DNA from: Bacillus phage vB_BspP_Dartukuta
Length of the DNA: 60,862 nucleotides
Reading direction: 5' to 3' (one strand)
Sequence record: MW749009.1
In this document: in pieces, positions 1 to 60,862 of the stretch
How positions within the stretch are numbered: the first letter of the stretch is position 1
How the letters are laid out: the number at the start of each line of letters is the position of its first letter
Made by a program: the position numbers and the translations under genes
Notes under the pieces: generated by a model
Databases searched by the model: none
Seen by the model: only the letters and a program-made list of their open reading frames with translations
Told to the model about the DNA's origin: nothing

Positions 1-101
1 AGTTGCTTCATTCGGTTGTACTCGTCTATCTGTGGATGACTTGGTGCTATACCGGTGCTACATTTAGCACTTCTCAAATCTGTTTTAGCACCGGTGATGG
101 C

Positions 102-1205
102 ATGGGATCTATTTATACTAGGAAAAATCAGGATGGCACTAACAAGTTCACAGCGCAAATACGCATTAAGAGAAAGCAAAAAGTAGTCTATCAAGAGTCG
201 CAAACTTTTAATAAGAAGACAGTCGCGCAAGCATGGATGAAGAAGCGCGAAGCTGAGCTAGCTCTGCCAGGCGCACTGGACGCTATCATAAACAAGTCTG
301 ACGTAAATATCGCACAGATTATCGAGCGCTATTTAGATGAGTATGAAGCCGTCAGGCCGCTAGGTAGAACCAAGCGAGCAACACTGAAAGCAATCGCAAG
401 CACACCACTAGGCGAGGTCATGGCTGAGGACCTTACATCGCAGATCATAGTCGAGTACGCGCAGCACCGAATGAAGAACGATGGAGTGCAGGCCCAAACT
501 ATCGGCAACGACTTGGCGCACCTTGGCGCAGTGCTATCAGTAGCAAGGCCTGCATGGGGTTATGCGATTGACGGTATCGCAATGAAGGACGCCAGAACAG
601 TGCTAAAAAAGATGAACTTAATATCAAGTAGCAAAGAAAGGGACCGCAGACCAACCATCGAAGAGCTTGAGCTGATACTGAGCCATTATGACGACATGAA
701 AAAAAGGCGCAATCAAGAAATCGATATGTTTAAGATTGTTGGTTTTGCGCTATTCTCGACACGTCGCATGGATGAGATAACTCGGATCAAATGGGATCTG
801 GTAGATGAGGAGGGGCAAAGGGTTCTCATAAAGGATATGAAAAACCCCGGCAATAAATGGGGGAATGATATCTGGTGCTACGTGCCTGATGAGGCTTGGG
901 CAATTATGCAGTCGATACCTAGAAGCAAAGAAGGGCCGTTCCCGTACAATTCAAAATCTATTAGCTCGTCATTCACAAGGGCGTGCAAGTTTCTTCAGAT
1001 TGAAAACCTGCACTTCCATGACTTGAGGCATGAGGGTGTCACTAGATTATTCGAAATGGGCTGGGATATACCCAAAGTTGCTTCGGTATCAGGGCATCGC
1101 GACTGGAACTCAATGCGCAGATATACGCACTTGAGGGGCGTAGGTGATAGGTACGAGGGGTGGGAGTGGGTTAATCGGATGGTAGAAAGTAAGAGTATAC
1201 TCTAA
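102..1205 (+). CDS. int: Tyrosine-type site-specific recombinase (phage integrase)
   Basis: ORF track 3..1205; most plausible ATG at 102 (MGSIYTRK...). C-terminal catalytic signature HFHDLRHEG...GHRDWNSMRRYTHL (R/H-x-x-R...Y of tyrosine recombinases). Confidence 0.9.
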   Translation: MGSIYTRKNQDGTNKFTAQIRIKRKQKVVYQESQTFNKKTVAQAWMKKREAELALPGALDAIINKSDVNIAQIIERYLDEYEAVRPLGRTKRATLKAIASTPLGEVMAEDLTSQIIVEYAQHRMKNDGVQAQTIGNDLAHLGAVLSVARPAWGYAIDGIAMKDARTVLKKMNLISSSKERDRRPTIEELELILSHYDDMKKRRNQEIDMFKIVGFALFSTRRMDEITRIKWDLVDEEGQRVLIKDMKNPGNKWGNDIWCYVPDEAWAIMQSIPRSKEGPFPYNSKSISSSFTRACKFLQIENLHFHDLRHEGVTRLFEMGWDIPKVASVSGHRDWNSMRRYTHLRGVGDRYEGWEWVNRMVESKSIL

Positions 1206-26479: not shown

Positions 26480-26782
26480 ATGACAAAAGCCACAAAGCCA
26501 CCAACACAAGTCGCAGGCGTAGAAGGTATTGCGCCTAAGCCTATCGTGCTCACGCCTGAGTCAAGCAAGATTGATTGGGCGAGAATTATCCAATTGCCGC
26601 CATTCCAAATGTTTGCCGTCGAGCGCGCGCGCAAGTCTGCCGCCGACGTGATGGCATGGATGCCGGCATGGGCGCGCGAGCACGAGAGCGAACAGGCGCT
26701 GTTCGACGACTACTGCCAGTGGCACAAAGAAAAGGGCTACTGGCCAGCAGAGACGCCAATGGGCGAATTGATCGAGCCGTAA
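26480..26782 (+). CDS. Hypothetical protein (100 aa)
   Basis: ORF track 26456..26782; likely ATG at 26480 (MTKATKPP). Confidence 0.4.
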   Translation: MTKATKPPTQVAGVEGIAPKPIVLTPESSKIDWARIIQLPPFQMFAVERARKSAADVMAWMPAWAREHESEQALFDDYCQWHKEKGYWPAETPMGELIEP

Positions 26783-26796
26783 CGAGAGGTTATTTC

Positions 26797-45600: not shown

Positions 45601-48600
45601 AAACGCAGCGCGTAGAGGCACTAAACTTGCTGATTATGTTCAGCAGTCAGAAATGGGTATTGATCCAATGGTATACCCAATTCTGGAAATGATGCTGAAC
45701 GAGAATGGCAATATCCGTAGTAGCAAATACATCGGCGAACAGCTAACCAATATGGCAAAGTTGGCTTATGATGAAGCCAACTCACCTAGCTCAGATATGT
45801 TTGGCGAAAAACCCAAGCGTACAGCTGAGCAGGTTATTCAAGACGCGCTTACTGGAGTACAAGGTTATGGCCAAATCAATGACGGAAGAGGGCAAGAAAG
45901 TCTGGGGCAGCGAGGGCGGTCAGAACCTGATGCGCAAATGGTTGAAGGGCCAGAAGGCGGACGAGAGCGACCAGCAGACACTAGACAAACTGCACCAACT
46001 CAACCAGAAGCAGAGCAAGAACAACCCGCAGCAGTAGAAAGCAATGCGCCTGAAACATGGCGCAGTAACTACATTCAAGCCGCCAAGATTGCACGCGAAA
46101 AAGGCATTAATCCTAAGCAGCATAAAAAACTCGCTGACTTGGTTGAAGCTATTGATGCGTCAAACACTAAACCTGAAGCTCAAACACAGCTAACAGCACA
46201 ACAGAAGCAGGCTTCAGGCAGTGTAGATGGTGCAAAAGTCCATCTTAACAACAGCATTGACCTAACCAGCGCATTAGCTGCAATCGCACGCGGCGCACAA
46301 TTAAGCACCGAGCCAAACGGTGACGTTATTCTTAGTGGCACCAAGATAATTACGCTTCCAAAGCCGCCAACTTCTATTGATGAAGTTATTGCCCCGTTAG
46401 CCACAGCCTTACTAGAACAAATGCGAGCAGATGGCGTTTCTATGCCTGGCAACCCAGCGGACATGACGCGGGATCAGTTTGCTATTGCCTATCACTTTGC
46501 AAACATAATTCCAGAGTTTGAAATCAGCGGAGCAGATATTGGTGGCGTAGTCCAAGGATCAAGCCGTGGCTTAACAGTAGACTCAGACAAGCTATACGAC
46601 AAGATCATCGAGCAAGCCAAAGAGCAGGCTAAACCAGCCTTGGAGCTTAACCAGCAAACCGAAGAATCCTTAGCTAAAGATGCCAAACGATTAGAGCAGC
46701 TGCAGAAAGAAGAAGCTGCGCAGAAAGTCGCGCAGAAAGCTGCAGAAAGGAAACAGCGTGAGCGTGACGCAGACAAGGCCAGAGCGGACGAAGTGGTTGA
46801 TGACTTCCAGTTGGGGCAGTCTGCAGAAGAAGTAATGTCTGGCATGGGTGATATTTTTGCGACTGAGAGCAAGCCAGCAGATAAAGGCATTGCGTCTCAA
46901 GCCGATGACAGCCATGTCACAGTTGTTGATAACCAATACAACCCAAACCCTACAGAAGCGCAGAAGCAGGCTGGCAACTACAAGAAGGCTCACGTTAAAT
47001 TCCAAGGCCTTGATATCACAGTAGAGAATCCAGTCGGATCAGTGCGCAGTGGCGTAGATCCTGACGGCAATACTTGGTCAAATACTATAAAGCATGATTA
47101 CGGATACATTAAGCGCACTAAGGGCGCTGACGGCGACCATGTTGATGTGTTTATAGGTAAAGATACCGAAAGCGATAAGGTATTTGTAATTGATCAGCCG
47201 CACAAAAACGGTAAGTTCGACGAACACAAAATCATGCTCGGCTTTAAAGACCAGACGCAGGCCGTAGAAGCGTACAAAGGCAACTATCAGAAAGACTGGA
47301 AAGTTGGCTCTGTCACTGAAATGACTGTGGGCGAATTTAAGCAGTGGCTTAGCAATGGTGATACCACCAAACCGGTTGAGCCAGTCGCGAAGCCAGCAGC
47401 GCAAACAAAGCCAAGCCAAGCCATTGAGGACTTTGGTGAGAGGCTGGAAGGCGCACGCAAGGATTACGCCAGCAAACTATCTGACGCTAAAGAGGTAGAC
47501 ATTGCGACTGAGCCACTATCAAAGTCTTGGCCAGAGCCGAATTATCAGAAGTTGATTGACGGAGGAATGCCGCTAGAAACAGCAAGTATTGTTCGTGCTA
47601 TTCGTGATGAGATTCCAGTGAAGCCGCGCGCATCATGGCGACTGAAAGGATGGGTGCGACAAGTAAGCGAAATGCGTGATTTAGCCTTGAATTTGATGGG
47701 GGAAACAGCTACAGCTAAAGTGATTGTAGAGCAGATAAAATCTAATAAATCTTTATCAGACATAGTGAATCGTGCAGACCTGTACTCGGCAGTTGGGCAC
47801 GATAAAAGCCTAAAAGATATTAGTTTAAAACAAAGCTCTTACTCGTTGATTGATGGTGTTAAATACTCGCCACCGAAAGAGCTCTGGACGGTTGAAAGGC
47901 CGATTAAAAGCAGCGTAATAAGCAACATGCCCAGACGTATTGCGACAGCTGAAACAAGAGAGCAAGCGATTGCCAAATTCAAAAATGCGTATGCAACATT
48001 GGACGAAAGCAAACGTGTCAAGAACAAAGCAGTTGAGTTTGGGGTTTATACAGACAGAACCACAAAAGATGTTTTCATTGGCCGGAAGGTTGGCAAAAGT
48101 ATTGCTCGCGTAAAAACTGGATTCGAAACTGCTAAAGATGCAATTGCACACCTAAAGGAAAACTATGCTGCTCTTGAAGAGCGGTTTAACAAGATGAAGG
48201 ATACGCCCGATCATCGTAAGGCTGAAAACTCACCTAGAGTTGGCGTTGATCACCGAAATGGCGCGGATGTAACACCGGAGCAGTTCTCTGATACGTTCGG
48301 GTTCAGAGGGGTGCAGTTCGGTAACTATGTAGAGCAAGGACGTAGGCAGCAGGATCTAAATGAAGCCTATGATGCGCTTATGGACATGGCTGGCGTGTTA
48401 GGTATTCCAGCAAAATCTCTATCTTTAAATGGTGAGCTTGGACTAGCGTTTGGTGCTCGTGGTAAGGGTGGAAAACAAGCAGCTAAAGCGCATTATGAGC
48501 CAGATCAAATTGTTATTAACTTAACTAAGAAAAATGGCGCAGGCAGCCTTGCTCACGAATGGTGGCATGCGCTTGATAACTATTTTGGCCGCGAGCGTGG

Positions 48601-51600
48601 CGGTAAAAGCAATGAAATGTATGCCTCAGACAATCGAGCTCACGCGACAGTCAGACCTGAAATGGCAAAGGCTTATCGTGATATTGCAAGCGCAGTAAGC
48701 CGAACCAAGCTGAAGTTTCGTTCAGACAAGCTCGATAGAATGCGCACAAAACCATACTGGGGTACCGGTATAGAAATGACTGCGCGATCTTTCGAGAGCT
48801 ACGTTATTGAGAAGCTGCGTGATAGCGAGTTATCTAATGATTATTTAGCCAATATTGTTGGCGAAGATTACTGGAATGCTGCGGCAGCACTGGGCATTGA
48901 AAAGGATGGTACTTATCCGTATCCAGAGGCGGCTGAGATACCGGAAATCCGCGCTGCGTATGATAACTTTTTTAACACTCTAGAAACAAAGGAGGGTGAA
49001 GATGGCAATGTCCTGCTTTTTAGCTTTGCAGGCAAGACTGCTCGTGGCGCTGATCTTATGGCGCTGGATCAGGCTCAGTTGCGCATTGCTTCTGGTGACA
49101 ACGCCGAGACTGTACGCCAAGAAACAGGTTGGCACCGTGGCGATGATGGAAAGTGGCGCTTTGAGATCAGCGATGATCAAGCCAAGCTGCGCGTAGCTGG
49201 TAAAAATGCAGGTGAGCTTATTGACTCAGCCGCGCTTGACGCGATCACCGGTGGCCGCAAGTTCCCAGTGACTTCTGACCTGATCGACCACGCTCAACTA
49301 TTTGTTGCCTATCCTAAACTAAGCAATATCAAAGTAGAGAAAATGCCAGAAGGCGGTACCGCTCTAGCGCGATTAAAGCGCAGAGCTACAGGCTTCACTA
49401 TCCAGTTGCGCGATAACTTGCCACGCGAGAAAGTGGCGTCTGCAATCTTGCATGAGCTACAGCACGGCATTCAGGTTTACGAAGGCTTTGCCGTAGGCGG
49501 CTCTAAGAATATGGTCTTCAGTGATCTTGATATGAGTGGAGCCAAGGCGTATCGCGCACTTGCCGGTGAAGTGGAAGCGAGAAATACCCAAACACGCCAC
49601 TCTATGACGCCAGCTTTGCGCCGCAACATTGCGCCTGAGCTGACTCAGGACACGCCAAGTGCAGACGTGATCGTCACGTTCAACGGTAAGGACATTACCA
49701 ACAAGGCAATTCCTAATAACGTCAATAACGCGCCGATAACTGATGCCTCGCTGGTGCGAGCGTTCGATGTACAGTTCCCTCGGTTAACTAAAGCTGTGCG
49801 CACCATGCTTGCCCGTGGTAATAAGGGCGAGCGTGGTGGTGTGGTCGTGATTGATAGCGCTGATCCATTGATGATTGCCCGTGCGTTCGCCAAGAAAACA
49901 GGCAAGCCAATATCGCAGTCGGTGCAAATGTTCTCAGACGCTGGTGTGATCAATGGCTTCTTTGATCCTAAGTCTGGCCTTACCTTCCTTGTTGGTCCGA
50001 ACTTGAATCCAGTCACCGGCACAGCTGTTTTGCTTCACGAAATGATCCACGGTCAACAGCGCCAGAAGATCGACAAGGCCGCACTTGCCATGCTGATGAA
50101 TCGCGGCAAAGAGAAAAACGCAGAAACACGAGCGTTCCTTGATCGCGTAGCTGCTCGCATGGATGATGCTGGCGAAACAGCGAACGCACAAGAGGCAGGC
50201 GCTTACATTGTTGAGCAGGCCGTAATGGAAGGTAAGAGCGCTGGTTATGGCACTGCAGACAGCCGATTCCTTTCATGGGTAGACCAACATATTGGTAAGA
50301 CGGTAGGTGACTTCTTACGCTCGTTCATCGGTAATTTGCGCAGCTGGGCGCTGCGTAACGGCTTGCCTATTGGTCCGATTACTGTGGACGATCTTGTTAG
50401 CTACGCAATGGCAGGTATGAAGCAGGCTGGTCGCGGTAATGTTGATGGCGGTGCCGCTGGGTTCAGTCGTGACGCAACAGCTAGCCTAGAGGATGCTCTA
50501 GCGAAACTTGATGCGCTCGGCCTGAAGCATCGGATCAGCGAGCGCAACGATGTTATTACTGTGAGCAAGATTGAGGTGCCCGAGGGCGCTAGAGGTCAGG
50601 GCGCTGGATCATCGGCAATGCAAGCCCTGATCGACTACGCGGACGCCACTGGTAAGCACATTGCTTTAACACCAACAGCCGATTTTGGTGGTAACAAAGC
50701 AAGGCTTAAGGAGTTCTATCAGCGCTTTGGATTCAAGGAAAATAAGGGTAAAAACAAAGTTTACGAAGTCTCAGAAGGAATGGTTCGCGAAAATCCGAAT
50801 GGGCGCACCCTATATTCAAAGGGCATCACTGAAGATCTAGCAGAAGGCCAGCGGCAGTTTGCACAAACAGAAAATGCTTACGGTGGTCGTGCAGCCTACG
50901 ATCAGGCAAAATCAGAGGGCAAGACCAAGCTGAACTATCAGCAGTGGGTGCAGGTACGTACGCCTGCTTTTAAAAACTGGTTTGGGGATTGGGAAAATGA
51001 ATCAGAAAGAGTTGAGCGAAAAACAGAAAGAGTTCAGGAGGTGGCTGGACGAAACACTGCCAAACCCAACGCCAGAGCAACTCAGCCAGCTGGACGAGCG
51101 TGGCGACTGGATCCAGAAACCGGAGAGCCAAGAATCTTCTATCACGGAACCAAAGACAGCTTCACCGTCTTCGACCTAGATCACCAGAACAGAAAGGATC
51201 ACGGCTGGTTAGGTACAGGTATTTACACTGGAAGCGATAAACTTTTAGCAGAGTCATACGCAAGGCTGAAAGATGGCTCAGGTGAGCCGCGAGTTATGGA
51301 GTTTTTTGCAAATGTAAGGAACCCATATAAGGCTACTATAGAAGATAAGCAGCGGGGAAGATTTGCTGATAGAGCTTACGCCGACAGAGTTACAGAAAAG
51401 TTAAAAGAAGCTGGATACGACGGTGTAGTACTTCCGTTCGCAGATGGCAGTGTCGAGCTGGTGGCGTTTGATAAGCCGCAGATCAAATCAGCCACCGGCA
51501 ACGTCGGTACGTTTAGTGCAGACAATGATGATATACGATTTAGCTTTGCCGGCCAAAGGTCAGGAACAGCCGACCACTACTCATTAGGGTCAGCGCAGCA

Positions 51601-54600
51601 GCGCATTGAATCCGGCGAAAATGCAGAAGCGGTGCGTCAAGACACGGGCTGGCACAAAGGCATTGATGGCAAGTGGCGCTACGAAATTAGCGACCATGAC
51701 GCAAAACTACGCAAGCCATTTCCATCTAAGGGCCAGCTTTGGGGTGGAGTTTACGAAAGTGTCAACCAGTCCAAGGTGCAAAGAGGCGAGGGATACGGTA
51801 TCAGCCTAGGCGAAATACTGGATCACCCTGCACTATTTGCGGCATACCCGCATCTTGCAAGCCTATCTGTAAGCACGCAAAAGGGTAGCGGTGCGTCATA
51901 CGAGTCCGGCAGCCCTTCCAGTCCGGCATCTATCAGTATCGGCACCGATGTGCCAATGTATGACGTGCCAAGCAAGCTGCTGCACGAAATCCAGCACGGC
52001 ATTCAGAATATTGAAGGGTTTGCGCGTGGCGGCACTTTAGAAACGGGCGCTGGTTTGAGCAACCTTCATGCTCTACTTGAAAAGCAGAAGAATGAATTTG
52101 AAAACGAGCACGGGTTCAACGACTGGATTTTTGAACTAATACTGGAGCAGCCAAAACGACATAAAGCCTTGATGGACGAGGGCGCAAAAGATGGGTATTC
52201 ACTCCGTTCGCTATATCAGTCTTTTGCTAGTGAGAAGCTATCAGAAGAAGATCGCGGATATTTCGTATCGAGGATGCTGGGTTATGAAGATAAACTAAGA
52301 AAAGTCGCGCTTTCAAAGCACATAACTCCGAGCGAGTTCTATCAACGATTAGCAGGCGAAGTTGAAGCCCGCAACACCCAGATCCGCCATAAGATGACGG
52401 CTGAACAGCGCAAAAGCACACCGCCAAGCGCAACGCAAGATGTATCCGATGCCGATGCCATTGTCATGTTCAACGGAACGGAAATGCACAACGCGCCCGC
52501 ACCGGCAAACACCGGCACAAGCGACATTCGCTTCAGCCGCTCAGCTAACCCAGCTTCAATAAGCGCGGCACCAAACGGAATGGCAGCTTGGGATAGCCCT
52601 TCGGCATCGAAGTTCGATGACTTTGTTTACAAGATGCAAGATAAGCACGTTGATACAAAGCGCGTGATTGAAGCTATCCGCGACACAGGTAAGGCAATCA
52701 GCGATGACCTAGACGTATACCTGCAAGAAACATTGTTTCATGGGCGAGCAGCTAAGCGCACGCAAGACTTCTTAAACAAGGAAGTAAACCCGCTTATTGA
52801 GTACATGCAAAGCGCCAAGGTTGAAATGAGCGATCTTGAAGAGTTCTTGCACGCACGACACGCACAGGAAGCTAACGCGCTGATTGCTAAGCGCGATCCT
52901 AATATGCCTGATGGTGGGTCAGGTATGACAAACGCTGAGGCCGCAAAATACCTTAATTCGCTAAATGGCGTTCGACGTAAGCAATTAGAGAACGCTGCAA
53001 AGTTTGTCGATAAGATTATCGGTGGAACACGAGAAACCATTGTTAGCTATGGCCTTGAAAGCCAAGAAACGGTTGATGGCTGGACAGCCGGATTCAAGCA
53101 TTACATTCCGCTGCAGCGTGAAGATAAAGACGGCCAGATGGGTATTGGCCAAGGCTTCAGCGTTAAAGGAAAAGAGACTAAAGGACGCACAGGCTCAACA
53201 CGTAAGGTTGTTGATATTCTGGCCAACGTGATGATGCAGCGTGAGCGCGCCATTGTTCGTGGTGAGAAAAACCGAGTAGCAGTTGCATTGCTAGGACTCG
53301 CTAAAGATAACCCGCTACCTGAGTTCTGGCAGGTTGATAAAGTTCCGACAACACGGGTGCTTGATAAAGTAACAGGCTTGGTACGCAACCAAGCGGACCC
53401 TATGTACAAGAGTAGAGACAACGCTATTGTAGCTAAGGTAAACGGCCAAGAGCATGCGATCCTGATGAACGAAGACGACCCACGCGCAATGCGCATGGCC
53501 GAGGCTTTAAAGAATCTTGATGCGGCACATCTGGAAGGGTTGTTAGGTGCTACAGCCACTGCGACACGATACTTTGCAGCAGTGAATACGCAGTACAACC
53601 CGATATTTGGCGTAACAAACTTTGTTCGCGATATTCAAGAAGCCATGCTTCACTTACAAAGCACGCCACTAGCAGGGCAGCAGTCGCGCTTGTTCAAAAA
53701 TACATTCACCGCAGTTGGCGCGGTAATGAAAGCAGAGCGCGACGGCAGAAAAGGAAATAATGCAACAGGGAAGTGGGGCGTTTTATGGGAAGACTTTCAG
53801 AATACCGGTGGGCAGACTGGCTTCAGGGATCAGTTCAGCAATAGCGCAGATCGCGGCAAAGAGATCCAGCGAGCTTTAACACCGGATGGCTGGGCGGAAA
53901 CAGGCTTAGGCAAGTTCTTTACCGCCAATGGAGCACTTAAAGCACCGCTCGAAGTAGTGCGCAAAAAAGCGGCATGGCTGTTTGATCTGCTATCTGATTA
54001 CAACACGGCAATGGAAAACGGCGTGCGATTATCTGCTTATGAGACTGGGATTAACGCTGGCATGAGCAAAGAGCAGGCGGCAGCACTGGCCAAGGGATTG
54101 ACCGTTAACTTTAATCGAAAAGGCCAAGTTACCCAGCAAGTCGGCGCGCTCTATGCGTTCTTCAATGCGAGCGTGCAAGGTACTGCTCGATTAGGTCAGT
54201 CGCTGTTTGATATGGATGCTGGCAAGCCTAAAACGCTACGCCTATCGTCTCTAGGGAAGAAAATCGTATCAGGCGGCGTTATGCTGGGCGCGTCTCAGGC
54301 TGTACTGCTAGCGATGGCTGGCTTTGATGATGAAGAGCCGCCTGAGTTTATCCGTGAGCGCAACATCATCATACCGACGGGCGGAAAAACCTATATCAGC
54401 ATACCAATGCCGCTTGGCTATCACGTTATCGCAAACCTTGGCCGTATACCGATGGAGTTTGTTCTTGGTGGTGGAAAAGATGGCGCTAAGCACCTGTTTA
54501 ACCTAATGGACGTAATGGCAGACATTTACAATCCAATCGGTAACTCAGGCTTATCCATGCAAACAATCGCGCCTACTGTGCTCGATCCGCTTGCTGGCCT

Positions 54601-55228
54601 TGCAGAGAATAAAGACTTCTCAGGTCGTGCGATTGCAAAAGAAAGCTTTAACCGCCAGACGCCAGGTCATGCGCTCGCAAGAGATACGGCATCACTGCCG
54701 GCAACATGGCTGGCTGAATTAGTCAACTATGCAACAGGCGGAACTGAGTTTACCCGTGGCGAGTTATCACCAACACCTGATCAAATTGATTACCTTGTTG
54801 GTCAGCTAACCGGTGGTGTAGGCCGAGAAACCACTAAGTTTATGAAGTCGATTCAGGCGACTGCCACCGGTGATGATTTGCCTTGGCACAACATTCCGTT
54901 AGTCGGCAGGTTTTTTGGTGACGCAGACAGCGACGGAGCCAAGCAGTCAGCCTTTTACAACAGCATGGACAAGGTGCGTAAGCATGCTGAGGAAGTGAAA
55001 GGTTTGCGCGCCTCAGGAAGATCAGGCGAGGCAGTCGAGTACGCCAACAAGCACCCTCATGCCAAGCTTCATCTAGCAGCCAGAGCAGCAGAAAAGCAAG
55101 TGAAGGATATGCGCGATCGTAAGCGTGATCTTGAGCAGGCAGGCGCGCCACGGGAAGAAATACGCGCACTAGAGAAGCGGATGGTTGAGCGCATGGAGCA
55201 ATTTGTTGAGCTGGCCAAGGCGCAGTAA
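42617..55228 (+). CDS. Giant multidomain (polyvalent-type) protein, 4203 aa
   Basis: Single uninterrupted ORF. By eye: Gly-rich hydrophobic segment (aa ~145-215), pyrophosphatase-like DYGYIKRTKGADGDHVDVFIG (~aa 1505), HExxH sites at aa ~1980, 2279, 2474 and 3123, a duplicated ~200-aa module (GWHRGDDGKWRFEISD / GWHKGIDGKWRYEISD), GNAT-like RGQGAGS...FYQRFGF (~aa 2660), ART-like YHGT...GIYTG...VELVAF (~aa 2840-2950), hydrophobic C-terminal region. Confidence 0.7.
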   Translation: MSFEVDLDSAVLEGDYYGDDTRVKPESSSSGFSPEAGPAKQPAPFSVDLESAELDEKANQGFIGTLADGAKSAGRAISSTYNTYTGDGQAVVDNAKAQELANEDKSQDIKNFQSDWAANTGAGTDDEVGLWGAIKGTGKAIIDNPRGAALSVVEQFPNSVPALAAGWAGAKGGAMAGGAVGSAFGGVGAGPGALIGGAAGFVGGMFLGNTLTETGHKAQEYAADGEFTPDEQSAAITEGAKKAGVITAVDALTFAVGGKVSGYYRKTAESTVEAATRKTLLDAGVDISDTAALTAARGSPQIASQVVEAQKNAAKIADNLRKRAGEAGALLTMETVGEGLGEYLGELAATGQASVAEAVLESFLSLGQSGVQSMFNFAKARERSLTDQEWIDASNGIAPEGMAPEQMPVADGIWDKPTPEAKIDMGQMQGGGVTPTPVFDPQDIDRNLAPTPSQQMGINPDAGPLSAAAAQSVDSGLFTGGFTPQAGINQSALEREGVTPPPVLDTDQIDRNLGSIDPLTGEYMPAPEQLGQSSQAGGAGNYEYDQWGNLSSVDGRTVDGYGQNQPRLGFNSKAERSTAPLYEVGPDGVARPSSGEAARSRKERIDLSSLKGRQQTQAQKQPAAMPEQRSPEQQAQSIWDSMNTFERNAAAANVLGMRGVPAKNAATKAWDKLSSEQQAKLVTGLESQQGKRWIDPNQKVTDQTGPVLQNRDRTSQDSINQMRSISNNPDYSRLKTSGFLSDGAPVVVDENIQIPASQMGVTDTASAGNERFNVQYAVVEADQLMTSNSIDGTTNAEYQTGAAGKARAIAGNGRITGLQSAWAKGNASQYKADMAADRMHGIDPAVIEGMRNPVLVRLLPQDQVTDNIGDLSNRDEKGRLSPVEQAKTDMGRIDLDSLKFTAEGAIGGEAIHQFRMAQPAAERVSEAEARKRLTSAVFQKAYGNDQLTEIQSGESDDAKSILSALAQAAPSMSRLEGAGEFDIRPLITQAGIAAVNAARRGTKLADYVQQSEMGIDPMVYPILEMMLNENGNIRSSKYIGEQLTNMAKLAYDEANSPSSDMFGEKPKRTAEQVIQDALTGVQGYGQINDGRGQESLGQRGRSEPDAQMVEGPEGGRERPADTRQTAPTQPEAEQEQPAAVESNAPETWRSNYIQAAKIAREKGINPKQHKKLADLVEAIDASNTKPEAQTQLTAQQKQASGSVDGAKVHLNNSIDLTSALAAIARGAQLSTEPNGDVILSGTKIITLPKPPTSIDEVIAPLATALLEQMRADGVSMPGNPADMTRDQFAIAYHFANIIPEFEISGADIGGVVQGSSRGLTVDSDKLYDKIIEQAKEQAKPALELNQQTEESLAKDAKRLEQLQKEEAAQKVAQKAAERKQRERDADKARADEVVDDFQLGQSAEEVMSGMGDIFATESKPADKGIASQADDSHVTVVDNQYNPNPTEAQKQAGNYKKAHVKFQGLDITVENPVGSVRSGVDPDGNTWSNTIKHDYGYIKRTKGADGDHVDVFIGKDTESDKVFVIDQPHKNGKFDEHKIMLGFKDQTQAVEAYKGNYQKDWKVGSVTEMTVGEFKQWLSNGDTTKPVEPVAKPAAQTKPSQAIEDFGERLEGARKDYASKLSDAKEVDIATEPLSKSWPEPNYQKLIDGGMPLETASIVRAIRDEIPVKPRASWRLKGWVRQVSEMRDLALNLMGETATAKVIVEQIKSNKSLSDIVNRADLYSAVGHDKSLKDISLKQSSYSLIDGVKYSPPKELWTVERPIKSSVISNMPRRIATAETREQAIAKFKNAYATLDESKRVKNKAVEFGVYTDRTTKDVFIGRKVGKSIARVKTGFETAKDAIAHLKENYAALEERFNKMKDTPDHRKAENSPRVGVDHRNGADVTPEQFSDTFGFRGVQFGNYVEQGRRQQDLNEAYDALMDMAGVLGIPAKSLSLNGELGLAFGARGKGGKQAAKAHYEPDQIVINLTKKNGAGSLAHEWWHALDNYFGRERGGKSNEMYASDNRAHATVRPEMAKAYRDIASAVSRTKLKFRSDKLDRMRTKPYWGTGIEMTARSFESYVIEKLRDSELSNDYLANIVGEDYWNAAAALGIEKDGTYPYPEAAEIPEIRAAYDNFFNTLETKEGEDGNVLLFSFAGKTARGADLMALDQAQLRIASGDNAETVRQETGWHRGDDGKWRFEISDDQAKLRVAGKNAGELIDSAALDAITGGRKFPVTSDLIDHAQLFVAYPKLSNIKVEKMPEGGTALARLKRRATGFTIQLRDNLPREKVASAILHELQHGIQVYEGFAVGGSKNMVFSDLDMSGAKAYRALAGEVEARNTQTRHSMTPALRRNIAPELTQDTPSADVIVTFNGKDITNKAIPNNVNNAPITDASLVRAFDVQFPRLTKAVRTMLARGNKGERGGVVVIDSADPLMIARAFAKKTGKPISQSVQMFSDAGVINGFFDPKSGLTFLVGPNLNPVTGTAVLLHEMIHGQQRQKIDKAALAMLMNRGKEKNAETRAFLDRVAARMDDAGETANAQEAGAYIVEQAVMEGKSAGYGTADSRFLSWVDQHIGKTVGDFLRSFIGNLRSWALRNGLPIGPITVDDLVSYAMAGMKQAGRGNVDGGAAGFSRDATASLEDALAKLDALGLKHRISERNDVITVSKIEVPEGARGQGAGSSAMQALIDYADATGKHIALTPTADFGGNKARLKEFYQRFGFKENKGKNKVYEVSEGMVRENPNGRTLYSKGITEDLAEGQRQFAQTENAYGGRAAYDQAKSEGKTKLNYQQWVQVRTPAFKNWFGDWENESERVERKTERVQEVAGRNTAKPNARATQPAGRAWRLDPETGEPRIFYHGTKDSFTVFDLDHQNRKDHGWLGTGIYTGSDKLLAESYARLKDGSGEPRVMEFFANVRNPYKATIEDKQRGRFADRAYADRVTEKLKEAGYDGVVLPFADGSVELVAFDKPQIKSATGNVGTFSADNDDIRFSFAGQRSGTADHYSLGSAQQRIESGENAEAVRQDTGWHKGIDGKWRYEISDHDAKLRKPFPSKGQLWGGVYESVNQSKVQRGEGYGISLGEILDHPALFAAYPHLASLSVSTQKGSGASYESGSPSSPASISIGTDVPMYDVPSKLLHEIQHGIQNIEGFARGGTLETGAGLSNLHALLEKQKNEFENEHGFNDWIFELILEQPKRHKALMDEGAKDGYSLRSLYQSFASEKLSEEDRGYFVSRMLGYEDKLRKVALSKHITPSEFYQRLAGEVEARNTQIRHKMTAEQRKSTPPSATQDVSDADAIVMFNGTEMHNAPAPANTGTSDIRFSRSANPASISAAPNGMAAWDSPSASKFDDFVYKMQDKHVDTKRVIEAIRDTGKAISDDLDVYLQETLFHGRAAKRTQDFLNKEVNPLIEYMQSAKVEMSDLEEFLHARHAQEANALIAKRDPNMPDGGSGMTNAEAAKYLNSLNGVRRKQLENAAKFVDKIIGGTRETIVSYGLESQETVDGWTAGFKHYIPLQREDKDGQMGIGQGFSVKGKETKGRTGSTRKVVDILANVMMQRERAIVRGEKNRVAVALLGLAKDNPLPEFWQVDKVPTTRVLDKVTGLVRNQADPMYKSRDNAIVAKVNGQEHAILMNEDDPRAMRMAEALKNLDAAHLEGLLGATATATRYFAAVNTQYNPIFGVTNFVRDIQEAMLHLQSTPLAGQQSRLFKNTFTAVGAVMKAERDGRKGNNATGKWGVLWEDFQNTGGQTGFRDQFSNSADRGKEIQRALTPDGWAETGLGKFFTANGALKAPLEVVRKKAAWLFDLLSDYNTAMENGVRLSAYETGINAGMSKEQAAALAKGLTVNFNRKGQVTQQVGALYAFFNASVQGTARLGQSLFDMDAGKPKTLRLSSLGKKIVSGGVMLGASQAVLLAMAGFDDEEPPEFIRERNIIIPTGGKTYISIPMPLGYHVIANLGRIPMEFVLGGGKDGAKHLFNLMDVMADIYNPIGNSGLSMQTIAPTVLDPLAGLAENKDFSGRAIAKESFNRQTPGHALARDTASLPATWLAELVNYATGGTEFTRGELSPTPDQIDYLVGQLTGGVGRETTKFMKSIQATATGDDLPWHNIPLVGRFFGDADSDGAKQSAFYNSMDKVRKHAEEVKGLRASGRSGEAVEYANKHPHAKLHLAARAAEKQVKDMRDRKRDLEQAGAPREEIRALEKRMVERMEQFVELAKAQ

Positions 55229-57981: not shown

Positions 57982-58293
57982 ATGTCTGACGATGTTAAGA
58001 ACGCTATAGGCCAGTTTGCAGCGTGGTTTGCTGGTGCTATCGGAGTCATCAGCCTTGAAATGTGGCTGGCAATCGCAGGTCTTGTCATCTCAGGCTTTAT
58101 GGCTTGGACCAATTACAGGTCGCGAGAGATTCAAGATCGCTTATTGCTCGAAGAAGCGATGCGCAGCGTAGAGTTGCATGACCTTGAAATGCGGCGTATC
58201 AGGGCAGCGATAGATATTCCGCCAGCGGTAAATCGACCAGTTGTAAAAGAGCTTGTAAAAGAATCTGCAACAGCGAAGTGCCGTGATGAGTAA
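57982..58293 (+). CDS. Putative holin / pinholin (103 aa, two TM segments)
   Basis: Two hydrophobic helices (FAAWFAGAIGVISL, WLAIAGLVISGFMAW) and a charged C-terminus; immediately upstream of the SAR endolysin. Confidence 0.5.
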   Translation: MSDDVKNAIGQFAAWFAGAIGVISLEMWLAIAGLVISGFMAWTNYRSREIQDRLLLEEAMRSVELHDLEMRRIRAAIDIPPAVNRPVVKELVKESATAKCRDE

Positions 58294-58828
58294 GCGCGCC
58301 AGAGCATCGGTTATGGCGCTGGTGATTAGCGCCGCAGGTTTTTCTGCTTGGATGACCTCGGAAGGCTTCAGTCCTACGCCATACATTCCCACCAAAAACG
58401 ATGTGCCAACAATCGGTCACGGTTCAACTCGGTACGAAGATGGCTCACCAGTAAAGCTCACAGATAAACCGATCACCAAGCAGCGGGCAGAGCAGCTAGC
58501 TCGAAACCTTATGAGCACTGATGAAGCACGCTTTCGCGCAACAATACCCAACGTCACGCTTTACCAAGAAGAGTACGACTTATACCTAGACTTTGTTGGC
58601 CAGTACGGTATTGGCAACTGGCGCTCATCATCCATGCGCCGGCATCTACTGACAGGCGAATACGCGAATGCTTGCGGGGCATTGCTGCGGTATCGCTTTG
58701 CTGGTGGCTACGACTGCTCAACTATGATCAACGGCAAGCCTAACAACAGATGCTGGGGTGTCTGGGTAAGGCAGCTAGAGCGCCATGACAAATGTATGAA
58801 GGCGCAAGCGTACGGTGATGACGAATGA
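58283..58828 (+). CDS. SAR endolysin (T4-type lysozyme, GH24)
   Basis: N-terminal signal-anchor-release segment MALVISAAGFSAWMTS, then catalytic region SEGFSPTPYIPTKNDVPTIGHGST and RYRFAGG, matching the phage P21 R-type lysozyme pattern. Confidence 0.85.
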   Translation: MMSKRARASVMALVISAAGFSAWMTSEGFSPTPYIPTKNDVPTIGHGSTRYEDGSPVKLTDKPITKQRAEQLARNLMSTDEARFRATIPNVTLYQEEYDLYLDFVGQYGIGNWRSSSMRRHLLTGEYANACGALLRYRFAGGYDCSTMINGKPNNRCWGVWVRQLERHDKCMKAQAYGDDE

Positions 58829-58921: not shown

Positions 58922-59431
58922 GTGAATACAGAACTACGGCAAACACTATTCATGCTGATAGCACTAGCGGTAACAGGACTGGCAGTGTTTGGTATGGGAT
59001 ACGCGCTCGGCAGCAAGGCACCAGCGTTAAAACTCGAAGAGTTAAGAGGCCAAGTAAGTCGGCAGTCAGCGCAGGCAAAAGAAACTCTTGATCAGCTGAC
59101 CAAAGAGCGAGACGAAAAGCAGGCGCTGCTTGATGCCCAGGCAAAACAACAGGAGGAAAACGACAATGCTGCGAAACTTGAAATTGCTCGCCTTGCTGAC
59201 GAGCTTGCAAGTCGGCCTATTCGGGTGCGCGTCATCGCCGCAAGTGGGGCATGTAGTGGTAGCGCCGCTGGTGACACCAGCACCGGTACCGAAACTGGTA
59301 CAGGAAACGATGCCGCGACCAGTGGGCTATTACCAGAACCTAATTCTCGACGCCTTAGAGCAGCAATAGCAGAGGTTGAAACGCTGAGTGCTGCGTACAG
59401 TTCGTGCAGAAAACGATTGTTTAGCCATTGA
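58922..59431 (+). CDS. i-spanin (Rz-like)
   Basis: N-terminal TM helix LFMLIALAVTGLAVFGMGYALG, then coiled-coil periplasmic domain; contains the o-spanin ORF in another frame. Confidence 0.7.
   Translation: MNTELRQTLFMLIALAVTGLAVFGMGYALGSKAPALKLEELRGQVSRQSAQAKETLDQLTKERDEKQALLDAQAKQQEENDNAAKLEIARLADELASRPIRVRVIAASGACSGSAAGDTSTGTETGTGNDAATSGLLPEPNSRRLRAAIAEVETLSAAYSSCRKRLFSH
59166..59369 (+). CDS. o-spanin (Rz1-like lipoprotein), embedded in the i-spanin gene
   Basis: ORF track 59130..59369; ATG at 59166 gives MLRNLKLLALLTSLQVGLFGCASS with an LFGC lipobox and a Pro-rich mature region. Confidence 0.6.
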   Translation: MLRNLKLLALLTSLQVGLFGCASSPQVGHVVVAPLVTPAPVPKLVQETMPRPVGYYQNLILDALEQQ

Positions 59432-59432
59432 C

Positions 59433-60625
59433 ATCCTCCCCGACCTAAAGGACGGGGATTCCTACTGCTAGACGGCCATGCCCGACCGCGAGAATGTTAC
59501 GTGCCGCGTTTACATCGCGATCGTGAGTGACACCGCACTCACACGTCCATTCTCTTATTCCAAGCCCTGCGATACCTTTCGGCCTGCTATCGGGCAGTGC
59601 GCCACAACAGCTACAGGTTTGGGTGGTGTATGCCTCGTTCACTTCCTTAAAAACAATGCCTGCGTGAGCGCATTTATAGTCCAACATTGTTTTTAATTGG
59701 CCCCAGCCAGCATCTAACACTGACTTGGCCATCTTGGTTTTAACGAGTTTTAAACTACTGACATTGCCCACATAGATCTCACCGCAGCGGTTGACCAGCG
59801 TGCGACTGAACTTGTGCAGCGTATCTTTTCTACGGTTAGCAATCTTGGCGTGAATGGTTTTGACTTGAGTTTTATTTCTAGCCCGTTGCGCTATGGCTAA
59901 TTTCTCTTCAAGGCCACGGTAGAAACGACCGGCTTCCAGCTTTGTGCCATCTGAGCAGGTGGCCGTATCCGTTAAGCCTAGATCAATACCGATGCGGTCT
60001 TGTCCGACTGGGATCTCTGACTGCACATCCACCACCACATTAAAGTACCAGCGGCCACGCGCATCCTCATTGAAACTGGCAGTACGAAAACGGTGTTGGC
60101 CAAGGCCGTAGCTGTCCCACACTCCAAAGTATTGGCCGTTGAAATAGACTTGCCCGCTTTTCCACTGTGCTGCACCGGTGTTTACCGGAATCCAGCCTAA
60201 TGAGCGGCGTACGCCGCCTGACTTGCGCCAGTTCAGCCTGGTCTTGTTAAACTGTTTGCGGCGAGTCACGTACTCACCAGCAATGCACTGCAAGGTTTGG
60301 CTGTGCAAGCCCAGTTCCTTGCCTGCACCTTTCGTATAGGGATGCATATCGTAAGCTGATAGAAACACACTGCGCTCTTTGATCGAGCGCTGGCTTAATT
60401 CATTCACAAAGTTCCAGACGAAGTTCACGGCCATGGCTTGCTTGCGCAGCAATGAAATGTGCTTATCCTTGATACGAACTTTGAGTGTTTTGGTGTGCTT
60501 AATCATGCTGTATACAATACCAGTACTTACCCTTAGCGCCAATACTTTAGCAGTCTATTAAGGGGCGGCTTGCGCCGCCCTCGCTATCCATCCTCGCACT
60601 AAAAGTACGAGGTCTTTCGCGAAAC
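59433..60625 (-). mobile_element. IS200/IS605-family TnpB-only insertion element (ends approximate)
   Basis: tnpB flanked by similar subterminal hairpins: CATCC-TCCCCG-loop-CGGGGA at 59433..59458 and CCATC-CTCG-loop-CGAGG at 60588..60612, plus GGGCGGC-ttgc-GCCGCCC at 60563..60580. No tnpA ORF in the window. Confidence 0.6.
59445..60506 (-). CDS. tnpB: TnpB (RuvC-like RNA-guided endonuclease of IS200/IS605-type elements)
   Basis: RuvC-I IGIDLGLTDTATCSDG, zinc finger CSCCG...CECG, RuvC-III THDRDVNAARNI. ORF track 59445..60542 begins on TTG; first ATG at 60506 (MIKHTKTL). Confidence 0.9.
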   Translation of the reverse strand: MIKHTKTLKVRIKDKHISLLRKQAMAVNFVWNFVNELSQRSIKERSVFLSAYDMHPYTKGAGKELGLHSQTLQCIAGEYVTRRKQFNKTRLNWRKSGGVRRSLGWIPVNTGAAQWKSGQVYFNGQYFGVWDSYGLGQHRFRTASFNEDARGRWYFNVVVDVQSEIPVGQDRIGIDLGLTDTATCSDGTKLEAGRFYRGLEEKLAIAQRARNKTQVKTIHAKIANRRKDTLHKFSRTLVNRCGEIYVGNVSSLKLVKTKMAKSVLDAGWGQLKTMLDYKCAHAGIVFKEVNEAYTTQTCSCCGALPDSRPKGIAGLGIREWTCECGVTHDRDVNAARNILAVGHGRLAVGIPVL

Positions 60626-60862
60626 TGATAAAAATTAACATACGAACAATTCTAGAAGCCCTTATCTGGGGCGACTTTATGACTCTAATTACTCAGCGAT
60701 GCTACAAAAGTGCTAAAGCACTGGCTAGGTATTGCGTAAGTCATTGATTTATATTGGATTATTTTAACTGTGGTGCCGATCCATCATAGGGGCCACCGCA
60801 AACACCGAAGCCCAGACCTGCGGGACTTAGGCAGTAACTGCGAGGGATTCGGTGCATTTTCA

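What the first reader, a model, noticed from the sequence alone, without database searches (positions are those of the whole stretch)
59433..60625. TnpB-only IS200/IS605-type element inserted at the 3' end of the lysis cassette, with both end hairpins visible
The TnpB ORF has complete RuvC and zinc-finger motifs and is flanked by two similar subterminal hairpins, each preceded by CATCC (59433..59458 and 60588..60612). No Y1 tnpA fits in the window. The downstream end hairpin overlaps the tnpB stop and lies 2 bp after the i-spanin stop (59431), so the guide-proximal flank of the predicted omega RNA would fall in the spanin 3' end. The element may have replaced the native lysis-operon terminator or altered the spanin C-terminus.
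Basis: partly seen in the sequence, partly recalled or inferred. Interest (0 to 1): 0.55.

Follow-up and report, generated by a model that had tools for sequence, protein, structure and literature searches.

The report
TnpB-only insertion sequence in a phage spanin
A 1.2-kb mobile element of a well-known kind (IS200/IS605, carrying only the RNA-guided nuclease gene tnpB) recently landed inside the last codon of a temperate phage's lysis gene, and the element's own end supplies a new stop codon, so the gene changes by only one amino acid; it is a clean textbook case, not a new system.

Summary
Window 59428..60627 (minus strand, 1200 bp) is a non-autonomous IS200/IS605 element. It carries one intact tnpB (59445..60506), two subterminal hairpins and a structured omega-RNA-like 3' region.

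- **Ends.** They are fixed to the base by 22 left ends and 33 right ends of other copies, and by three 94-95% identical phages that lack the element.
- **Insertion site.** The element sits 3' of TTAT, inside the last codon of the i-spanin. CA|A TAA became CA|T TGA, giving Q169H at unchanged length, and the stop codon is now element DNA.
- **Recent arrival.** A 97.9% identical copy lies at another site in the Denitrificimonas caeni chromosome.
- **End architecture.** It follows IS608: TCAA right cleavage site 10 nt past the hairpin, with a 4-nt guide 5' of each hairpin foot that covaries with the target (TTAT/AAGA, TTAC/AAAG).
- **Catalytic site.** The RuvC site is not canonical. The motif II Glu is replaced (G247-N248), and E291 is invariant together with D175 and D331. 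This is the published "RuvC-II rearranged" class.
- **No tnpA.** The window has none; some relatives carry one.

It is a new member of a known kind, of modest interest.

The parts
59428..60627 (-). The whole insertion sequence (1200 bp). On the top (minus) strand it reads CAGTTTCGCG...GGAGGATGTCAA.
   Evidence: The ends come from 22 left-end and 33 right-end copies, from the 97.9% identical copy L022 with different flanks, and from element-free phages L075, L076 and L078.
60628..60631 (-). Target / TAM tetranucleotide TTAT (ATAA on the + strand). The element is inserted 3' of it.
   Evidence: All 22 copies have TTAT or TTAC directly 5' of the left end. Element-free relatives have TTAC at this spot (GTAA on +).
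60592..60612 (-). Left-end subterminal hairpin. The 4 nt 5' of its foot, AAGA (60613..60616), are the predicted left guide sequence.
   Evidence: DNA fold. Conserved in 22 copies. AAGA goes with TTAT targets and AAAG with TTAC targets. The IS608 rule is taken from PMC3201880.
60563..60582 (-). G+C-rich stem-loop between the left-end hairpin and the tnpB start (GGGCGGCGCAAGCCGCCC). Its role is unknown.
   Evidence: Seen in the sequence. Conserved in L001-L003 with changes that keep the stem.
59445..60506 (-). tnpB, 353 aa plus stop. Features: D175; G247-N248 at canonical RuvC-II; E291 (alternative Glu); zinc-finger cysteines C298, C301, C322, C324; D331.
   Evidence: AlphaFold2 model with pLDDT 91. 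Best structural matches are ISFba1 and ISDra2 TnpB.
59428..59554 (-). Predicted omega-RNA scaffold. It overlaps the last 110 nt of tnpB and ends at the element's right end.
   Evidence: Rfam HgcC match at 59415..59544, 37 bits (below the gathering score of 50), E 2e-6, full model length. Consensus fold over 24 copies has 36 pairs, 96.9% of cells paired, 7 pairs with compensatory changes, and 0-1 of 500 shuffles reach the observed measures.
59438..59457 (-). Right-end subterminal hairpin, with the tnpB stop codon TAG in its loop. It is preceded by GAAT (59458..59461) and followed by 10 nt that end in the cleavage site TCAA (59428..59431).
   Evidence: Stem covariation. IS608 geometry from PMC3201880.
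59408..59427 (-). Predicted guide segment of the omega RNA (TGGCTAAACAATCGTTTTCT). It is antisense to spanin codons 162-168 and the first two bases of codon 169.
   Evidence: Position directly 3' of the right end. The guide role and its length are inferred from the IS605 TnpB precedent (PMC8612924, listed) and were not measured.
58922..59431 (+). i-spanin (Rz-like), 169 aa. The third base of its last codon and its stop codon (59428..59431, TTGA) are element DNA.
   Evidence: PHROG Rz-like spanin. Relatives end ...RLFSQ* with CAG TAA, whereas the window ends ...RLFSH* with CAT TGA.
59166..59369 (+). Embedded o-spanin (MLRNLKLLALLTSLQVGLFGCASS lipobox). The insertion does not touch it.
   Evidence: ORF and lipobox read. 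Conserved in L006 and L074. No PHROG hit.

Best explanation
This is a recent, simple insertion of a non-autonomous IS200/IS605 element with IS608-like ends into a temperate phage or prophage of a Denitrificimonas-like host.

**Shown.**
- The element is 1200 bp, at 59428..60627, with its top strand on the window's minus strand.
- It inserted 3' of TTAT with no duplication or deletion.
- The site lies between the 2nd and 3rd base of the last i-spanin codon. The element's terminal TCAA, read on the other strand as T-TGA, replaces A-TAA, so the spanin keeps 169 aa with Q169H.

**Inferred.**
- The element was mobilised in trans by a host-encoded Y1 TnpA acting on single-stranded DNA (peel and paste). 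TnpA would recognise the two hairpins and pair the 4-nt guides (AAGA, GAAT) with the cleavage sites (TTAT, TCAA).
- tnpB and an overlapping roughly 127-nt omega RNA are expressed from the minus strand. The RNA runs past the right end and so acquires a guide of about 16-20 nt equal to the flank.
- The TnpB-RNA complex would cut any phage or host copy carrying the uninterrupted site (TTAT + TGGCTAAACAATCG...). Recombination with an occupied copy would then restore the element, which is selfish retention or homing.
- The nuclease uses D175, E291 and D331, with E291 standing in for the missing motif II glutamate.
For: **Identity of the protein.** Pfam and PDB sequence matches. The model has pLDDT 91, and its best folds are ISFba1 and ISDra2 TnpB (TM 0.72-0.78).

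**Ends.** Four-copy alignments and the 22 left / 33 right ends.

**Element-free alleles.** L075, L076 and L078 are 94-95% identical across the lysis genes and read ...AGCCA|GTAAAAATTAAC. The window reads ...AGCCA[element]ATAAAAATTAAC.

**Recent mobility.**
- L022 in Denitrificimonas caeni is 97.9% identical over 1208 bp with unrelated flanks.
- Several genomes carry many copies.

**Autonomous relatives.** A divergent Y1 tnpA is present in L015, L016, L019, L023, L036, L038 and L046, and none is found in the window.

**IS608-like rules.**
- TCAA ends 10 nt 3' of the hairpin foot.
- The target tetranucleotide covaries with the 4 nt 5' of the left hairpin (against PMC3201880).

**RNA.** HgcC match, and covariation that includes a codon second position paired with a wobble position.

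**Catalytic site.** D175, E291 and D331 are invariant in 73 sequences down to 36% identity. E291 follows strand 285-289, as described for rearranged TnpBs (PMC10691335).
Against: - No expression or cleavage data exist for this element. I found no experimental test of bacterial RuvC-II-rearranged TnpBs in the papers read.
- I could not measure distances in the model, so the placement of E291 at the active site rests on conservation, its position after strand 285-289, and the published description.
- The Rfam match is below the gathering score.
- No TnpA source was identified in the host, because only the loci fetched were searched.
- The simple scan found no sigma-70-like promoter in the region.
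- The three element-free relatives carry TTAC rather than TTAT and have 1-2 guide mismatches (positions 9 and 11), so they may not be good targets for this copy.
Confidence: 0.85

Rival explanations
1. The TnpB is a nuclease-dead, domesticated regulator (TldR-like). It would use its guide to bind and repress, or otherwise tune, the end of the lysis operon rather than to cut DNA.
For: The canonical RuvC-II glutamate is missing. The guide is antisense to the spanin 3' end and the gene is convergent with the lysis operon.
Against: - E291 is invariant together with D175 and D331 across the family, which fits the published active rearranged class.
- The protein is full length with an intact zinc finger.
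- The same element, 98% identical, sits at an unrelated chromosomal site.
- The family is multi-copy and carries intact transposon ends.
- 94-95% identical phages lack it.

All of this points to a recent passenger, not a fixed, exapted gene.
Confidence: 0.04
2. The element benefits the phage. TnpB with its guide cuts competing, closely related phages or prophages that carry the uninterrupted spanin end, giving exclusion or gene-drive-like spread during co-infection.
For: The guide equals the uninterrupted phage allele by construction. Related element-free phages exist in the same kind of samples. Relatives of this TnpB with the same right end occur in cultured phages.
Against: - This is the default consequence of any IS605-type insertion, and no phage-specific adaptation is visible.
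- The sampled relatives have TTAC, not TTAT, and 1-2 mismatches in the TAM-proximal 12 nt.
- No data exist on expression during infection.
Confidence: 0.15
3. The copy is a decaying relic: a stranded passenger with no TnpA available and no TnpB activity, kept only because the insertion is nearly neutral.
For: There is no tnpA in the window. The insertion costs the spanin only one residue, so there is little selection against it.
Against: - The ORF is intact and 99% identical in protein to the chromosomal copy.
- Both ends and all predicted RNA helices are intact.
- Divergence from L022 is only 2%.
Confidence: 0.12

Closest known systems
IS608 (Helicobacter pylori), IS200/IS605 family
   Same: - Subterminal imperfect hairpins at both ends, with no inverted terminal repeats and no target duplication.
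- Insertion 3' of a tetranucleotide (TTAC in IS608; TTAT or TTAC here).
- Right cleavage site TCAA lying 10 nt 3' of the hairpin foot.
- A 4-nt guide 5' of each hairpin foot. IS608 uses AAAG for TTAC, and the TTAC-targeting copies of this family also carry AAAG.
   Different: - This copy has no tnpA.
- The left cleavage site lies 15 nt from the hairpin foot, not 19.
- The TnpB belongs to a different, RuvC-II-rearranged lineage.
- The hosts are Pseudomonadales and other Gammaproteobacteria.
ISDra2 TnpB-omega RNA (Deinococcus radiodurans)
   Same: - Same fold (TM 0.78 to 8h1j).
- Same domain order and zinc finger.
- The omega RNA overlaps the tnpB 3' end and its guide is taken from the flank.
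- The presumed homing role is the same.
   Different: - About 22% identity in the structural alignment.
- The ISDra2 E278 position is G/N here, with E291 as the likely substitute.
- The TAM is TTAY rather than TTGAT (the ISDra2 TAM is from my own knowledge).
RuvC-II-rearranged TnpB clades (Altae-Tran et al. 2023, PMC10691335), e.g. RIIr-5
   Same: - The motif II glutamate is replaced: G247 is nearly invariant here, and the paper reports glycine in RIIr-5.
- A conserved alternative glutamate lies after the next strand.
- These TnpBs are mobile and sit in Y1-type transposon ends.
   Different: I could not place this protein on their tree, so assignment to a named branch is untested.
Phage-borne relatives: Ralstonia phages Hyacinthe, Dimitile and Heva; Acinetobacter phage HFM1; Salmonella phage LPSTLL
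   Same: - 54-57% protein identity.
- HFM1 and LPSTLL show the same right end GGGGAGGATGTCAA.
- In LPSTLL the gene also sits next to lysis genes.
   Different: - The phages and insertion sites differ.
- None shares DNA identity with the window at megablast level.
- Their left ends were not analysed.
HgcC RNA family (Rfam RF00062) and sotRNAs of IS1341-type tnpB genes
   Same: Full-length, sub-threshold match over the tnpB 3' end and right end. HgcC has been linked to tnpB 3' ends and right-end-like tetraloops (PMC4615843).
   Different: The score is 37 bits against a gathering score of 50. HgcC was defined in archaea. Membership is not claimed.

Membership tests
IS200/IS605 insertion sequences | Subterminal imperfect palindromes (hairpins) at both ends, with no terminal inverted repeats | tested here: met
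   Hairpins at 60592..60612 and 59438..59457 fold as ssDNA and are conserved with compensatory changes in 22 and 33 copies.
IS200/IS605 insertion sequences | Insertion 3' of a specific tetra- or pentanucleotide, without target-site duplication | tested here: met
   TTAT or TTAC lies 5' of every left end. The element-free alleles L075, L076 and L078 show flanks joined with no gain or loss.
IS200/IS605 insertion sequences | Cleavage sites recognised by 4-nt guide sequences 5' of each hairpin foot (shown for IS608) | tested here: met
   Sequence-level test only. AAGA goes with TTAT in 13 of 15 copies and AAAG with TTAC in 4 of 6. TCAA ends 10 nt 3' of the right hairpin, as in IS608. No biochemistry was done.
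IS200/IS605 insertion sequences | Y1 HUH transposase TnpA | tested here: not met
   tblastn with IS608 and IS200 TnpA sequences, which I recalled from memory, finds nothing in the window at E <= 1. It finds tnpA next to tnpB in 7 related loci. This copy is therefore a non-autonomous derivative, a recognised state of the family (PMC10691335).
TnpB RNA-guided nucleases | Domain architecture: OrfB_IS605 RuvC-like core plus a zinc-ribbon TNB domain | tested here: met
   PF01385 and PF07282 are both above their cut-offs. C298, C301, C322 and C324 are conserved. The fold matches 8iaz and 8h1j.
TnpB RNA-guided nucleases | Canonical RuvC D-E-D triad | tested here: not met
   D175 and D331 are present, but ISDra2 E278 aligns to N248, next to the nearly invariant G247.
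RuvC-II-rearranged TnpBs | Loss of the motif II glutamate, compensated by a conserved glutamate after the following strand | tested here: met
   E291 is invariant in 73 sequences and lies just after strand 285-289, matching the description in PMC10691335. Its 3D proximity to D175 and D331 was not measured.
TnpB RNA-guided nucleases | Omega RNA encoded at the tnpB 3' end and right end, with its guide from the flank | tested here: inconclusive
   A structured region is supported by covariation and by a sub-threshold HgcC match. The transcript, its processing and the guide length cannot be tested here.
TnpB RNA-guided nucleases | RNA-guided, TAM-dependent DNA cleavage | not testable with these tools
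   Needs a cleavage or interference assay.
TldR (nuclease-dead TnpB-like repressors) | Loss of catalytic residues, loss of transposon ends, and fixed association with a regulated gene | tested here: not met
   The D175/E291/D331 set is conserved. Both transposon ends are intact and the element is mobile. It is absent from close phage relatives.

The most novel reading that the evidence does not exclude
The end sequences of this IS family may be tuned for harmless landing on stop codons. The target TTAY is the complement of R-TAA, and the right end TCAA is the complement of T-TGA. An insertion at a convergent gene's TAA stop therefore hands that gene a new stop at the same position. This would let the element sit inside compact genomes such as phages and, through TnpB homing, spread among co-infecting phages like a gene drive. 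In 31 distinct copies, the frame closed by the element's TGA is open for at least 60 codons in 9, against 4 and 3 in the two control frames.
Probability: 0.2. Interest if true: 0.45.

Novelty: new member of a known kind. Interest (0 to 1): 0.3.

Why it matters
This is a base-exact example of an IS605-type TnpB element caught shortly after entering a phage. Occupied and empty alleles and a near-identical chromosomal donor-type copy are all available.

- That makes it a convenient natural system for testing whether TnpB homing operates between phage genomes.
- It also allows a test of whether a bacterial RuvC-II-rearranged TnpB (D175/E291/D331) is an active nuclease with a TTAY TAM.
- For annotation, the spanin stop codon is element-derived, and the spanin should be called intact (Q169H).

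It does not reveal a new kind of system.

Tried and rejected
**Searches that found nothing.**
1. Megablast of the region against the phage collection and against E. coli genomes.
2. Exact-pattern scans of viral contigs for the spanin 3' flank and for a gapped empty-site pattern.

**Empty-site reconstructions I rejected.** I first considered two boundaries.
- Boundary after TTATCA would give a native spanin ending ...SHDKN*. The more distant phage L006 ends ...LHDFR*, which seemed to favour this.
- Boundary after TTATC would give a long read-through.

Both were rejected once the 94-95% identical element-free phages showed the junction is after TTAY. The TTAT/AAGA and TTAC/AAAG covariation agrees.

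**Less informative comparators.** L006/L072/L073 and L074 lack the element, but their spanin ends differ too much to fix the junction.

**Other leads dropped.**
- The relatives' downstream sequence looked like a tRNA 3' end (possible att site), but ARAGORN finds no tRNA there.
- The promoter and terminator scan found no promoter-like site. The one terminator-like hit lies inside tnpB and is no more than the shuffles give.
- I could not read model coordinates, so no distances between E291, D175 and D331 were computed.

Full report
**What is there.**
The minus strand of window 59445..60506 encodes a 353-aa protein starting MIKHTKTLKV. It matches Pfam OrfB_IS605 and Cas12f1-like_TNB above their cut-offs. 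It also matches ISDra2 TnpB and an AI-designed TnpB-like nuclease in the PDB at E about 1e-22.

An AlphaFold2 model built on a 73-sequence alignment has mean pLDDT 91. Its best solved-structure matches are ISFba1 TnpB and ISDra2 TnpB, with TM 0.72-0.78.

The genes upstream on the + strand are a lysis cassette:
- holin, 57982..58293;
- endolysin, 58283..58828;
- Rz-like i-spanin, 58922..59431;
- an embedded lipobox o-spanin, 59166..59369.

An integrase at 3..1205 marks the window as a temperate phage or prophage.

**Exact ends.**
The protein has thousands of relatives, the closest in Denitrificimonas, Thiopseudomonas and other Pseudomonadales. I fetched independent copies and aligned both ends.

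- On the element's top strand (the window's minus strand), similarity stops abruptly after ...GGAGGATGTCAA. The next base is variable in 33 copies.
- Similarity starts at C(A/G)..., directly after a flanking TTAT or TTAC, in 22 copies.
- One copy, L022 in the Denitrificimonas caeni chromosome, is 97.9% identical to window 59427..60634 and has unrelated flanks.

The decisive evidence came from looking up the exact holin protein. It returned contigs of phages 94-95% identical across the lysis genes that lack the element.

| Allele | Sequence at the site |
|---|---|
| L075, L076, L078 (element-free) | ...TTTAGCCA\|GTAAAAATTAAC... |
| Window (occupied) | ...TTTAGCCA[1200 bp]ATAAAAATTAAC... |

The element is therefore 59428..60627. 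It is inserted 3' of TTAT (60628..60631 on the minus strand), with no duplication or deletion.

**Effect on the phage.**
The relatives' i-spanin ends AGC CAG TAA (...RLFSQ*, 169 aa). In the window it ends AGC CA|T TGA (...RLFSH*, 169 aa). The T and the TGA are the reverse complement of the element's terminal TCAA.

The insertion lies inside the last sense codon. It changes one residue (Q169H) and swaps the stop codon for one carried by the element. The o-spanin is untouched.

The right flank continues to match the relatives for about 25 nt.

**Transposon-end architecture.**
Both hairpins fold as single-stranded DNA with z-scores of -2.7 and -3.2.

- The right hairpin (59438..59457) is preceded by GAAT and followed by 10 nt ending in TCAA.
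- The left hairpin (60592..60612) is preceded by AAGA and lies 15 nt from the cleavage point.
- Across copies, TTAT targets go with AAGA and TTAC targets go with AAAG.

This is the IS608 scheme. [quoted passage not shown] That IS608's right guide is GAAT is my recollection; I did not verify it in that paper.

**No transposase here.**
A tblastn search with IS608 and IS200 TnpA sequences, which I wrote from memory, finds no Y1 transposase anywhere in the window. It does find a divergently oriented tnpA directly upstream of tnpB in seven related loci. The family therefore has autonomous members, and this copy is a TnpB-only derivative that must be mobilised in trans.

**Catalytic site.**

- In the alignments to ISDra2 TnpB, E278 falls on N248 in the motif I-Y-V-G-N-V-S.
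- In 73 family members down to 36% identity, G247 is nearly invariant and N248 is variable.
- D175, E291 and D331 are invariant.
- E291 lies just after strand 285-289.

This matches the RuvC-II-rearranged TnpBs of Altae-Tran et al. 2023. In those, the motif II glutamate is replaced (by glycine in the largest clade), an alternative glutamate from the next strand faces the active site, and the clades are as mobile as canonical ones (PMC10691335). I could not measure distances in the model, and I did not place the protein on their tree.

**Omega RNA.**
Rfam's HgcC model matches 59415..59544 on the minus strand over its full length, at 37 bits (below the gathering score of 50) and E 2e-6. HgcC has been linked to tnpB 3' ends (PMC4615843).

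A consensus fold of the last 140 nt of 24 distinct copies gives 36 pairs in 7 helices. Of all cells, 96.9% form standard pairs and 7 pairs show compensatory changes. No more than 1 of 500 shuffles reaches any observed measure, and all slid controls score far lower.

One pair links the second base of codon 323 (E, G or A) to the wobble base of the Thr327 codon (AU 8, GC 8, CG 3). Protein coding alone would not produce this pattern.

The guide would be the flank directly 3' of 59428, TGGCTAAACAATCGTTTTCT. Expression, processing and guide length remain inferred.

**Mechanism.**
- *Shown:* a recent, precise, nearly neutral insertion of a mobile, multi-copy IS.
- *Inferred from IS608 and ISDra2 precedents:* TnpA-mediated single-strand peel-and-paste into TTAT. 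The TnpB-RNA complex would then cut the uninterrupted allele (TTAT plus guide match), and recombination would restore the element.

The sampled element-free phages carry TTAC and have 1-2 guide mismatches at positions 9 and 11, so they may be poor targets for this copy.

**Rivals.**
- A nuclease-dead regulator is unlikely, given the invariant D175/E291/D331 set, the intact ends, the 98% identical copy elsewhere and the element's absence from sibling phages.
- A phage-beneficial exclusion role or a stranded relic cannot be excluded without experiments.

**Novelty.**
Relatives at 54-57% identity are already present in cultured phages: Ralstonia phages, Acinetobacter phage HFM1 and Salmonella phage LPSTLL. 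HFM1 and LPSTLL share the right end GGGGAGGATGTCAA. This is a new member of a known kind, and its value is as a clean natural test case.

**Side observation.**
TTAY is the complement of R-TAA, and TCAA is the complement of T-TGA. Landing on a convergent TAA stop therefore regenerates a stop at the same position.

In 31 distinct copies, the frame closed by the element's TGA is open for at least 60 codons in 9, against 4 and 3 in the two control frames. This is suggestive only, because G+C-rich genomes inflate open frames and I did not check gene calls.

Noticed in passing
window 59428-59431 and 60628-60631; loci L023, L033, L034, L047, L049, L053, L065, L070: The target TTAY is the complement of R-TAA, and the right end TCAA is the complement of T-TGA. 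Insertion at a convergent gene's TAA stop therefore regenerates a stop at the same place. In 31 distinct copies, the frame closed by the element's TGA is open for at least 60 codons in 9, against 4 and 3 in the control frames.
   Followed up: partly
window 59503-59518 (codons 323-327 of tnpB); alignment A5 columns 32/45: The second base of codon 323 (Glu, Gly or Ala) covaries with the wobble base of the Thr327 codon to keep an RNA helix (AU 8, GC 8, CG 3). An amino-acid choice in the zinc finger is thus coupled to omega-RNA structure.
   Followed up: partly
L015, L016, L019, L023, L036, L038, L046 (about 50-480 nt upstream of tnpB, opposite strand): Autonomous relatives carry a divergently oriented Y1 tnpA. 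Pseudomonas putida II-2, Oceanospirillum beijerinckii and MAG DTU037 each hold many copies or fragments.
   Followed up: partly
window 60563-60582: A G+C-rich stem-loop (GGGCGGCGCAAGCCGCCC on the top strand) lies between the left hairpin and the tnpB start. It is conserved with stem-preserving changes in L001-L003. Its role is unknown.
   Followed up: no
window 42617-55228: A single 4203-aa ORF. Its ortholog in L076 (4102 residues) carries Pfam ddrB-ParB, LPD1/5/23/38 and ART-PolyVal hits, so it is a 'polyvalent protein' of the kind found on phages and conjugative elements.
   Followed up: no
window 3-1205 and 9883-9959: A tyrosine integrase lies at the left edge (PHROG integrase, E 4e-41), and a tRNA-Arg(TCT) gene lies inside the phage.
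   Followed up: no
window 60655-60862 versus L075, L076, L078 downstream of the spanin: About 25 nt past the insertion site the window stops matching its 94-95% identical relatives. This is either a mosaic boundary or a different integration site. The relatives' sequence ends in a CGCACCA-like motif, but ARAGORN finds no tRNA.
   Followed up: partly
L083 (Salmonella phage LPSTLL, record 26646-27737): The TnpB relative is annotated in GenBank record MN737551.1 as 'putative head morphogenesis protein'. The RefSeq copy calls it a transposase. It lies directly upstream of that phage's lysozyme, lysin and holin genes.
   Followed up: no
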